In this document: in pieces, positions 44,965-45,099 of the stretch
How positions within the stretch are numbered: position 1 is the stretch's first letter
Layout of the letters: each line of letters begins with the position of its first letter
NCBI GenBank assembly: GCA_025830695.1
Contig: GCA_025830695.1_4111.1
DNA from: a phage
Reading direction: 5' to 3' (one strand)
DNA length: 64,000 nt
Made by a program: the position numbers and the translations under genes
Notes under the pieces: generated by a model
Told to the model about the DNA's origin: nothing
The model's database searches: none
Seen by the model: only the letters and a program-made list of their open reading frames with translations

Positions 44965-44978
44965 ATTCAGTACTGAAT
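44965..44978 (+). repeat. perfect 14-bp palindrome ATTCAGTACTGAAT (copy 1)
   Basis: Read from sequence; intergenic. Confidence 0.8.
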
Positions 44979-45085
44979 CACCAGGGGAGGTTGTGATTCC
45001 CGATTCAGTAGCTTATAAAGCAGACCCGTATGTGCCTACACATTACAACTAGTGCACATTTAAAACCTAGACGTAGGATGTAAGT

Positions 45086-45099
45086 ATTCAGTACTGAAT
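45086..45099 (+). repeat. perfect 14-bp palindrome ATTCAGTACTGAAT (copy 2)
   Basis: Read from sequence; flanking TAGACG... context repeated from copy 1. Confidence 0.8.

What the first reader, a model, noticed from the sequence alone, without database searches (positions are those of the whole stretch)
44965..45099. Two copies of the perfect 14-bp palindrome ATTCAGTACTGAAT in an intergenic region
The full palindrome occurs twice, 121 bp apart (44965-44978 and 45086-45099), each preceded by a TAGACG... context, in a 275-bp non-coding stretch between gene 44508-44945 and the promoter at 45219.
Basis: seen in the sequence. Interest (0 to 1): 0.5.

Follow-up and report, generated by a model that had tools for sequence, protein, structure and literature searches.

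The report
Palindromes inside a conserved phage RNA
The two identical 14-base palindromes are real and conserved, but comparison with related giant phages suggests they are stem and loop pieces of an undescribed folded non-coding RNA rather than simple protein-binding sites. Their core, AGTACT, is also a word these phages keep at about seven times the expected frequency throughout their genomes.

Summary
ATTCAGTACTGAAT sits at 44965-44978 and 45086-45099, in a non-coding stretch of an Asteriusvirus (121Q/PBECO4-like) jumbo coliphage.

- **Conservation.** The palindromes lie in a roughly 270-nt block (about 44950-45216). The block is kept in 37 Asteriusvirus genomes. It is 90.6% identical in JNE01, where the aligned genome averages 77%.
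- **Second genus.** A homologous block exists in Klebsiella RaK2-like phages, again beside tRNA genes and with the same 121-nt spacing.
- **RNA structure.** Covariation supports + strand hairpins. P1's right half pairs with GAUUCAGUA. P2's left half pairs with GCUGAA..ACU, which leaves P2's right half in the loop.
- **Key test.** Across the 32 nt around P2, the two genera differ at four positions, and these form two compensatory pairs. One of them breaks the palindrome core in RaK2.
- **Ends.** An intrinsic terminator ends the block. A consensus sigma-70 promoter follows.

Best reading: an undescribed structured RNA with no Rfam match and unknown function.

Separately, AGTACT/CAGTACTG is about 7-fold over-represented genome-wide in three genera, in all reading frames. 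Individual sites are under purifying selection. So a DNA-level role for the palindromes is not excluded.

The parts
44950..45216 (+). Conserved non-coding block, read as a structured RNA of about 265 nt. The 5' end is not mapped. The left limit is where conservation begins in genomes with different upstream genes.
   Evidence: Present at >=92% identity in 37 Asteriusvirus genomes. It is 90.6% identical to JNE01 against 77% over all aligned sequence. Flanking genes differ between relatives. No ORF of 40 aa or more lies within 44946-45159. No Rfam family and no tRNA match.
44965..44978 (.). Palindrome P1, ATTCAGTACTGAAT.
   Evidence: Invariant in 15 of 16 distinct sequences from two genera; EJP2 has one A->G change that stays G-U compatible.
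44971..45010 (+). Hairpin H1. The outer stem pairs UACUGAAUC (44971-44979, P1 right half) with GAUUCAGUA (45002-45010). The inner stem pairs about 44984-44988 with 44997-45001.
   Evidence: RNAalifold consensus. The outer stem is invariant. Three of four inner-stem pairs change on both sides between genera. Single-sequence fold gives -16.6 kcal/mol, z = -3.0.
45028..45046 (+). Hairpin H2, weakly defined. The inter-genus alignment is uncertain here.
   Evidence: Three consensus pairs, two with changes on both sides. By eye on the alignment, a longer RaK2-type stem GUACUUGUG/CACAACGUAC has a G-C to A-U change in KpOU509535.
45066..45077 (+). Hairpin H3, CCUA-GACG-UAGG.
   Evidence: Two of four pairs covary: U-A to C-G between genera, and C-G to U-A within Alcyoneusvirus.
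45086..45099 (.). Palindrome P2, ATTCAGTACTGAAT.
   Evidence: It reads ATTCTGTACTGAAT in all Alcyoneusvirus sequences and ATTCAGTTCTGAAT in WPEC3 and fEgEco12.
45083..45111 (+). Hairpin H4. The 5' strand AGU.AUUCAGU (45083-45092, P2 left half) pairs with GCUGAA..ACU (45101-45111). The 8-nt loop ACUGAAUA (45093-45100) is P2's right half.
   Evidence: The four inter-genus differences in these 32 nt are exactly two compensatory pairs, U-A to C-G and A-U to U-A. Fold energy is -9.9 kcal/mol and 0 of 200 shuffles fold as well.
45132..45150 (+). Hairpin with a UUCG tetraloop (loop 45139-45142).
   Evidence: Among Asteriusvirus haplotypes there is one G-C to A-U compensatory pair, wobble-compatible single changes, and matched indels.
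45170..45216 (+). Intrinsic-terminator-like element. The extended stem pairs 45170-45189 with 45194-45209 and is followed by U6 at 45211-45216. A third AGTACT (45203-45208) lies in the 3' strand of the stem.
   Evidence: JNE01 carries a compensatory G-C to A-U change in the stem. The simple terminator scan did not flag this element.
45219..45246 (+). Next promoter, TTGACA-16-TATAAT. It is not part of the RNA.
   Evidence: 12/12 consensus match. Conserved in relatives.

Best explanation
The two palindromes are building blocks of a conserved, folded non-coding RNA. The RNA is transcribed rightward from the early/tRNA region of Asteriusvirus and Alcyoneusvirus jumbo phages.

**Shown.**
- The roughly 270-nt block is much better conserved than its coding neighbours.
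- It is single-copy in the sequence searched.
- It lies next to tRNA genes in both genera.
- It ends in a terminator hairpin plus a U-run.
- It folds into at least four hairpins whose pairs are kept through compensatory and G-U-compatible changes on the + strand.

**How the palindromes fit the fold.**
- The RNA re-uses one mutually complementary heptamer, AUUCAGU/ACUGAAU, five to six times.
- P1's right half pairs with a third copy, GAUUCAGU, to form H1.
- P2's left half pairs with GCUGAA to form H4.
- P2's right half is displayed in the H4 loop.
- P1's left half is left single-stranded.

**Inferred.**
- The invariant loop (CUGAAU) and the invariant P1 left half (AUUCAG) pair with each other as a pseudoknot, or serve as contact sites for a partner.
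- The RNA is made by read-through from upstream early genes and trimmed, like a 3'-UTR-derived small RNA or the stable RNAs of the T4 tRNA cluster.
- It acts as a stable small RNA whose function is still unknown.
For: - **Conservation.** 37 Asteriusvirus genomes at >=92%. The block is 90.6% identical to JNE01 against 77% overall. The conserved block starts and ends independently of flanking gene content.
- **Cross-genus homologue.** Same 121-nt P1-P2 spacing, again next to tRNA genes.
- **Structure.** RNAalifold gives 29 pairs, 9 with changes on both sides. 99.8% of cells are paired, against 43% or less when partners are slid. 0 of 500 shuffles reach the covariation score.
- **H4.** All four inter-genus differences form two compensatory pairs.
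- **Further compensatory changes.** In the UUCG hairpin and the terminator within Asteriusvirus.
- **Strand.** G-U pairs occur only on the + strand, which matches gene orientation.
- **Single-sequence folding.** The minimum-energy fold of the window segment reproduces H1, H3 and H4.
- **Alternatives ruled out.** No conserved ORF, no tRNA, no Rfam family.
Against: - No transcript data were available, and no promoter or 5' end is defined.
- Phylogenetic depth is shallow: two genera. Most both-sided changes trace to one split, so independent events number only about 8-10.
- For RaK2, the single-sequence minimum-energy fold prefers the long-range P1:P2 duplex.
- In Asteriusvirus, UAGCUGAAGG can instead pair with CCUUUAGCUA at 45157-45166, which competes with H4.
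- P1's left half and the H4 loop are invariant, and the secondary structure alone does not explain this.
- The same word is under genome-wide, apparently DNA-level selection. A DNA role at these sites cannot be excluded.
Confidence: 0.62

Rival explanations
1. DNA-level sites. P1 and P2 are the strongest local copies of the genome-wide (C)AGTACT(G) palindrome. They are bound or modified by a dimeric sequence-specific protein such as a regulator, a nucleoid-type protein or a methyltransferase. This could act alone or on top of the RNA structure.
For: - AGTACT is 5.6-9.7-fold over-represented in Asteriusvirus, Alcyoneusvirus and Mimasvirus, and CAGTACTG is at or near the top of the 8-mer counts in the first two genera.
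- The excess holds in all three frames and against synonymous shuffles: 114 observed against 31 +/- 4.5.
- Flank preferences are symmetric.
- AGTACT is the best-conserved hexamer between the window and JNE01: 60% against 26%.
- Some early promoters carry TCAGTACTG abutting the -10.
- P1 is invariant across two genera, including its unpaired left half.
Against: - P2's core is broken in every Alcyoneusvirus sequence, and the change is compensated for RNA pairing, not for dyad symmetry.
- Neither site overlaps a promoter, and a terminator separates them from the next one.
- Nothing in a DNA-site model explains the conservation of the 107 nt between them or the covarying hairpins.
- No binding protein was identified.
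Confidence: 0.22
2. P1 and P2 pair with each other in the transcript. This would form a 14-16-bp double-stranded helix that closes a 107-nt domain. It could act as an RNase III-type processing site or as an alternative conformer of a switch.
For: Perfect 14-bp complementarity, 15 bp with the flanking U-A, in Asteriusvirus. It is the minimum-energy fold for RaK2 and for the window's minus strand. The 121-nt spacing is conserved.
Against: Five Alcyoneusvirus and two Asteriusvirus sequences carry uncompensated mismatches in this helix, and no pair changes on both sides. The changes that do occur are compensated in H4 instead. The helix is shorter than the roughly 20 bp usual for RNase III substrates (from general knowledge).
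Confidence: 0.1
3. The repeats are chance occurrences, remnants of a local duplication, or the inverted ends of a small mobile insert.
For: A palindrome repeated twice looks like both a direct and an inverted repeat. GGAUGU-like bases precede both copies in some genomes. Flanking genes are mosaic.
Against: 0.05-0.07 perfect copies are expected even given the genome-wide motif. There is one copy per genome in the sequence searched and no paralogues. Conservation extends 120 nt beyond P2 to the terminator. The block is conserved across two genera.
Confidence: 0.03

Closest known systems
Stable small RNAs encoded in phage tRNA gene clusters (T4 species 1 and 2 RNAs), and bacterial small RNAs processed from mRNA 3' ends. 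This comparison rests on general knowledge and was not tested here.
   Same: A non-coding, highly structured element that lies among tRNA genes in two genera. It sits at the end of a transcription unit and shares the unit's terminator. No promoter of its own is evident.
   Different: There is no sequence or Rfam relationship to any described RNA. Expression, processing and stability are unknown. It is built from repeated copies of one self-complementary word.
Highly iterated palindrome HIP1 (GCGATCGC) of cyanobacteria. The concept, and the methylation of its CGATCG core, are mentioned in PMC6604393; the other details are from memory.
   Same: A short palindrome occurs many-fold above expectation across the whole genome, in coding and non-coding DNA. 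It has a 6-bp core plus preferred outer bases.
   Different: - It occurs in a virus rather than in cyanobacteria.
- The word is AT-rich (the ScaI site).
- The outer bases differ between genera: C/G in Asteriusvirus and Alcyoneusvirus, A/T in Mimasvirus.
- No cognate methyltransferase specificity is known.
- One-base variants are not depleted.
Operator palindromes of phage and bacterial repressors, and multi-site systems such as mycobacteriophage stoperators (from memory).
   Same: Dyad symmetry, many copies per genome, and some copies inside promoter spacers.
   Different: Most copies are inside genes in all frames and are evenly spread. The two copies studied are not at a promoter. One of them is not kept as a palindrome in the sister genus.
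SlmA-binding sites of E. coli (GTGAGTACTCAC; consensus recalled from memory).
   Same: They share the AGTACT core.
   Different: The phage sites prefer C at -1 and T at -2/-3. G at -1 is not enriched: 22 of 147, which is background level.

Membership tests
Any described RNA family (Rfam 15), tRNA or tmRNA | A match to a covariance model at or near its gathering score, or an ARAGORN call | tested here: not met
   Only the known tRNAs match in the window, at the gathering threshold and with E up to 10 on 44800-45650. The RaK2 and KpOU509535 loci give the same result. ARAGORN finds nothing in the block.
Structured non-coding RNA (generic) | Base pairs maintained by compensatory substitutions across homologues, and stronger conservation than neighbouring coding sequence | tested here: met
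   Nine pairs change on both sides, 99.8% of cells are paired, and controls fall far below. The block is 90.6% identical against a 77% background. Caveat: only two genera are represented.
Structured non-coding RNA (generic) | The region is transcribed and accumulates as a discrete RNA | not testable with these tools
   No transcript data were available. Orientation is inferred from G-U pairs and from gene direction.
Intrinsic terminator (3' end of the block) | A stable stem-loop immediately followed by a U-run | tested here: met
   Extended stem 45170-45209, then C plus U6. There is one compensatory change in JNE01. The simple scan did not flag it.
Repressor operator | The site overlaps or adjoins the regulated promoter | tested here: not met
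   P1 and P2 lie about 240 and 120 bp upstream of the -35 at 45219, with the terminator hairpin in between.
Repressor operator | Both half-sites are conserved in relatives | tested here: inconclusive
   P1 is conserved in both genera. P2 is conserved in Asteriusvirus but has a broken core in all Alcyoneusvirus sequences.
Repressor operator | A cognate DNA-binding protein exists | not testable with these tools
   Neighbouring genes have no functional annotation in PHROGs. No candidate was identified.
HIP1-like highly iterated palindrome (genome-wide word) | Many-fold excess of a short palindrome, in coding sequence in all frames and in non-coding DNA | tested here: met
   AGTACT occurs 147 times in the window against about 22 expected. 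Inside genes the count is 114 against 31 +/- 4.5 in synonymous shuffles, with frames 52/22/40. The same holds in 121Q, JNE01, RaK2, GAP32 and CBB.
HIP1-like highly iterated palindrome (genome-wide word) | A methyltransferase specific for the core | not tested
   121Q gp417 belongs to the phage Dam family PF05869. Its specificity cannot be read from the sequence.
RNase III processing helix | A contiguous double-stranded helix of about two turns that is kept in relatives | tested here: not met
   The P1:P2 helix is 14-15 bp. Seven of 14 sequences have an uncompensated mismatch.
Miniature mobile element with inverted ends | Several copies per genome with matching ends | tested here: not met
   A covariance model finds one copy per genome and no paralogues in 180 kb searched.
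SlmA-binding site | The GTG...CAC flanks of the consensus | tested here: not met
   G at -1 occurs in 15% of sites, which is background level, whereas C occurs in 37%.

The most novel reading that the evidence does not exclude
The RNA and the genome-wide word belong to one system. The RNA displays perfect copies of the very palindrome the phage maintains at roughly 800-1000 sites per genome. This figure is extrapolated from 2-3 sites per kb and the genome length. The RNA could act in either of two ways:
- as a decoy or titrator for the factor that reads (C)AGTACT(G);
- as a pairing partner, because a self-complementary word lets one RNA pair with every transcript that carries it.

This would be a virus-encoded 'iterated palindrome plus RNA' system with no described counterpart.
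Probability: 0.12. Interest if true: 0.85.

Novelty: new member of a known kind. Interest (0 to 1): 0.55.

Why it matters
- It adds a conserved, covariation-supported non-coding RNA to a group of 350-kb phages in which over 80% of genes have no known function. No RNA element of this kind is reported in the genome papers checked.
- It shows that an eye-catching DNA palindrome can be a by-product of RNA helices built from one repeated heptamer.
- The side finding may matter more. Phages normally avoid restriction-site palindromes, yet these enterobacterial jumbo phages keep the ScaI word AGTACT at about 7 times expectation, with site-level purifying selection. The sampled 18 kb of their Pseudomonas relative PA5oct holds none.
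- That pattern points to an unknown genome-wide reader, modifier or self-marking mechanism. It can be tested directly by methylome sequencing and protein-DNA binding assays.

Tried and rejected
- **Known RNA families.** Rfam at the gathering and permissive thresholds, and ARAGORN, found nothing in the block.
- **Operator of the next promoter.** The sites are too far upstream and a terminator intervenes.
- **General promoter element.** Only 3 of 22 strong sigma-70-like promoters in the window carry AGTACT in the spacer, and two of these are duplicates of each other.
- **SlmA site.** The flanks do not fit.
- **Codon or amino-acid artefact.** Rejected by synonymous and codon-order shuffles.
- **Repair-driven creation of the word.** One-base variants are not depleted.
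- **Helical phasing, clustering or gene-boundary preference of AGTACT sites.** None was seen.
- **Mobile element or paralogous family.** The block is single-copy.
- **P1:P2 long-range duplex as the conserved feature.** It shows uncompensated mismatches.
- **Small protein in the block.** No ORF of 40 aa or more exists within 44946-45159, and stops occur in all frames.
- **More distant homologues.**
  - An IMG/VR pattern scan returned only 121Q and RaK2.
  - A metagenome scan returned one more Asteriusvirus contig.
  - Sensitive BLAST found nothing in Mimasvirus or other genera.
- **Literature.** No paper in the library links AGTACT/CAGTACTG, or an RNA at this locus, to these phages.

Full report
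**1. The observation**

The window is the early/tRNA region of an Asteriusvirus jumbo coliphage. The closest relatives are ELP-22, SHEFM2K, PBECO4 and 121Q at about 98-99% identity. Nearly all genes lie on the + strand.

ATTCAGTACTGAAT occurs perfectly at 44965-44978 (P1) and 45086-45099 (P2), and nowhere else in the window. The described surroundings are also correct:
- ORF 44508-44945.
- TAGACG at 44954 and 45068.
- A 12/12 sigma-70-like promoter at 45219-45246.

**2. The core word is a genome-wide feature**

- AGTACT occurs 147 times in 64 kb, against about 22 expected from composition.
- CAGTACTG occurs 27 times against about 0.6 expected and is one of the two commonest 8-mers in the window.
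- TCAGTACTGA with up to one mismatch has 28 matches, against 2.4 in dinucleotide shuffles.
- Inside genes the word occurs in all three frames (52/22/40). The count is 114, against 31 +/- 4.5 after synonymous-codon shuffling and 17 +/- 4 after codon-order shuffling. It is therefore not a coding artefact.
- Flank preferences are symmetric, with C at -1 and G at +1 and weaker T/A beyond.
- One-base variants are not depleted.
- Sites are evenly spread, with no phasing and no preference for gene ends.

The excess is shared by several relatives:

| Phage (region) | AGTACT excess | Note |
|---|---|---|
| 121Q (another region) | 9.7x | |
| JNE01 | 7.3x | |
| RaK2 (Klebsiella) | 5.6x | |
| GAP32 (Mimasvirus) | 6.3x | preferred flanks AAAGTACTTT |
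| CBB (Mimasvirus) | 7.2x | preferred flanks AAAGTACTTT |
| PA5oct (Pseudomonas, 18 kb) | 0 sites, 6 expected | |

Against JNE01, which is 77% identical over 33.5 kb, AGTACT is the best-conserved of 274 frequent hexamers. 44 of 73 sites are kept, against 19.9 expected. So individual sites are under purifying selection.

Even allowing for this word, two perfect 14-mers are exceptional: 0.05-0.07 are expected.

**3. The local block**

The sequence from about 44950 to 45216 is conserved in 37 Asteriusvirus genomes at 92% identity or more. This holds although the gene to its left differs between them. Against JNE01 the block is 90.6% identical, while the genome average is 77% and the neighbouring genes are 80-83%.

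It has no ORF of 40 aa or more within 44946-45159, no tRNA and no Rfam match.

A sensitive search found a homologous block in the RaK2-like Klebsiella phages (Alcyoneusvirus):
- P1 is identical.
- P2 reads ATTCTGTACTGAAT.
- The P1-P2 spacing is again 121 nt.
- The block again lies in a non-coding stretch next to tRNA genes.

**4. RNA structure**

The analysis used an alignment of 14, later 16, distinct sequences from both genera. RNAalifold predicts the following helices:
- **H1.** Outer stem UACUGAAUC (P1 right half) with GAUUCAGUA. The inner stem's sequence is replaced between genera, with three compensatory pairs.
- **H2.** A short, weakly defined stem.
- **H3.** CCUA-GACG-UAGG, with two covarying pairs. 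This explains the 'TAGACG' context.
- **H4.** AGU.AUUCAGU (P2 left half) with GCUGAA..ACU. The loop is ACUGAAUA (P2 right half).

In the named-structure count, 99.8% of cells pair, against 43% or less when partners are slid. Nine pairs change on both sides. No shuffle reaches the covariation score.

The most telling detail concerns H4. In the 32 nt around P2 the two genera differ at exactly four positions, and these form two compensatory pairs. One is the A-to-U change that destroys the AGTACT core of P2, matched by U-to-A 13 nt downstream.

The rival long-range P1:P2 helix shows only uncompensated mismatches.

Further points:
- In the 3' half, Asteriusvirus haplotypes show compensatory change in a UUCG-loop hairpin (45132-45150) and in an extended terminator stem (45170-45209, then U6). 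The terminator stem contains a third AGTACT.
- G-U pairs occur on the + strand only.
- Single-sequence folding of the window segment reproduces H1, H3 and H4.
- A covariance model finds one copy per genome and no paralogues.

**5. Interpretation**

The best-supported reading is an undescribed structured RNA. It is built from repeated copies of the complementary heptamers AUUCAGU and ACUGAAU. The two DNA palindromes arise because a left and a right heptamer happen to abut twice.

P1's unpaired left half and the H4 loop are invariant and complementary to each other. A pseudoknot between them, or a shared partner, is therefore plausible but untested.

There is no promoter of its own, and the flanks are mosaic. 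The RNA is therefore probably made by read-through and trimmed. This step is inference.

Its function is unknown. The conserved single-stranded segments suggest that it contacts a protein or another RNA.

**6. What remains open**

- Depth is limited to two genera.
- RaK2's own minimum-energy fold prefers the P1:P2 duplex.
- An alternative pairing competes with H4 in Asteriusvirus.
- The RNA's palindromes share their core with the word selected genome-wide. A DNA-level role at these sites, or a functional link between the RNA and that word, cannot be excluded.

**7. Comparison with known systems**

- For the RNA, the nearest analogues are small stable RNAs of phage tRNA clusters and 3'-end-derived small RNAs.
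- For the genome-wide word, the nearest analogue is the cyanobacterial HIP1 palindrome (PMC6604393).
- Operator, SlmA-site, RNase III-site and mobile-element memberships were tested and not met.
- No paper in the searchable library describes either feature for these phages.

Noticed in passing
whole window; also L009 (121Q), L019 (JNE01), L010 (RaK2), L020 (GAP32), L021 (CBB): AGTACT is 5.6-9.7-fold over-represented, in all reading frames and in non-coding DNA. CAGTACTG is at or near the top of the 8-mer counts in Asteriusvirus and RaK2. It is the best-conserved hexamer between the window and JNE01 (60% against 26%). Phages usually avoid such restriction-site palindromes. No explanation was found.
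   Followed up: yes
L022 (PA5oct 100000-118000); L020 and L021 (Mimasvirus): The Pseudomonas relative PA5oct has no AGTACT in 18 kb, where 6 are expected. GAP32 and CBB keep the AGTACT excess but prefer A/T flanks (AAAGTACTTT) instead of C/G.
   Followed up: partly
window 41927-41955, 42406-42435, 60247-60275; near-matches at 43167-43195 and 42335-42365; L009:2349: A subset of consensus sigma-70-like early promoters carries TCAGTACTG(A) in the spacer, directly abutting the -10 hexamer and always in the same register. This is an operator-like position, unlike that of P1 and P2.
   Followed up: partly
window 45099-45108 with 45157-45166: UAGCUGAAGG can form a 10-bp helix with CCUUUAGCUA. This competes with hairpin H4 in Asteriusvirus and could be an alternative conformer. 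It is invariant, so covariation gives no test, and RaK2 has no counterpart.
   Followed up: partly
window 46888-46970: ORF 46613-46897 ends inside the word (CAG TAC TGA). The next hairpin, TAGCTTCTA...TAGAAGCTA plus a T-run, carries another CAGTACTG in its loop. Other terminator-like hairpins also embed AGTACT, at 22380, 27152 and 37918.
   Followed up: no
window 57865-58720: A stretch of about 850 nt has no long ORF. It contains GC-richer segments that look structured, the only E. coli Chi sequence in the window (58096), and a promoter-like site at 58422. It has no Rfam match, and folding is not clearly better than shuffles (z = -1.7).
   Followed up: partly
window about 39640-41800: Several short tandem paralogous ORFs beginning MTHEEWM... 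are interleaved with the tRNA genes.
   Followed up: no
L013 (RaK2) 1504-2418, especially 2100-2290: The RaK2 homologue of the block lies in a 900-nt unannotated gap. The gap also holds promoter-like sites and a second GC-richer stretch ending in ...CATTCAGTAC, just before a tRNA gene. This may be a further non-coding RNA.
   Followed up: no
window, L009, L010, L019-L021: GTGCAC is among the three most enriched 6-bp palindromes in five of the six enterobacterial RaK2-like samples (2-3.9-fold).
   Followed up: no
L009:43986-44507 (121Q gp417): The annotated DNA methyltransferase belongs to the phage Dam family PF05869 (E = 7e-32). Its target sequence is unknown. It is a candidate to test against AGTACT.
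   Followed up: partly
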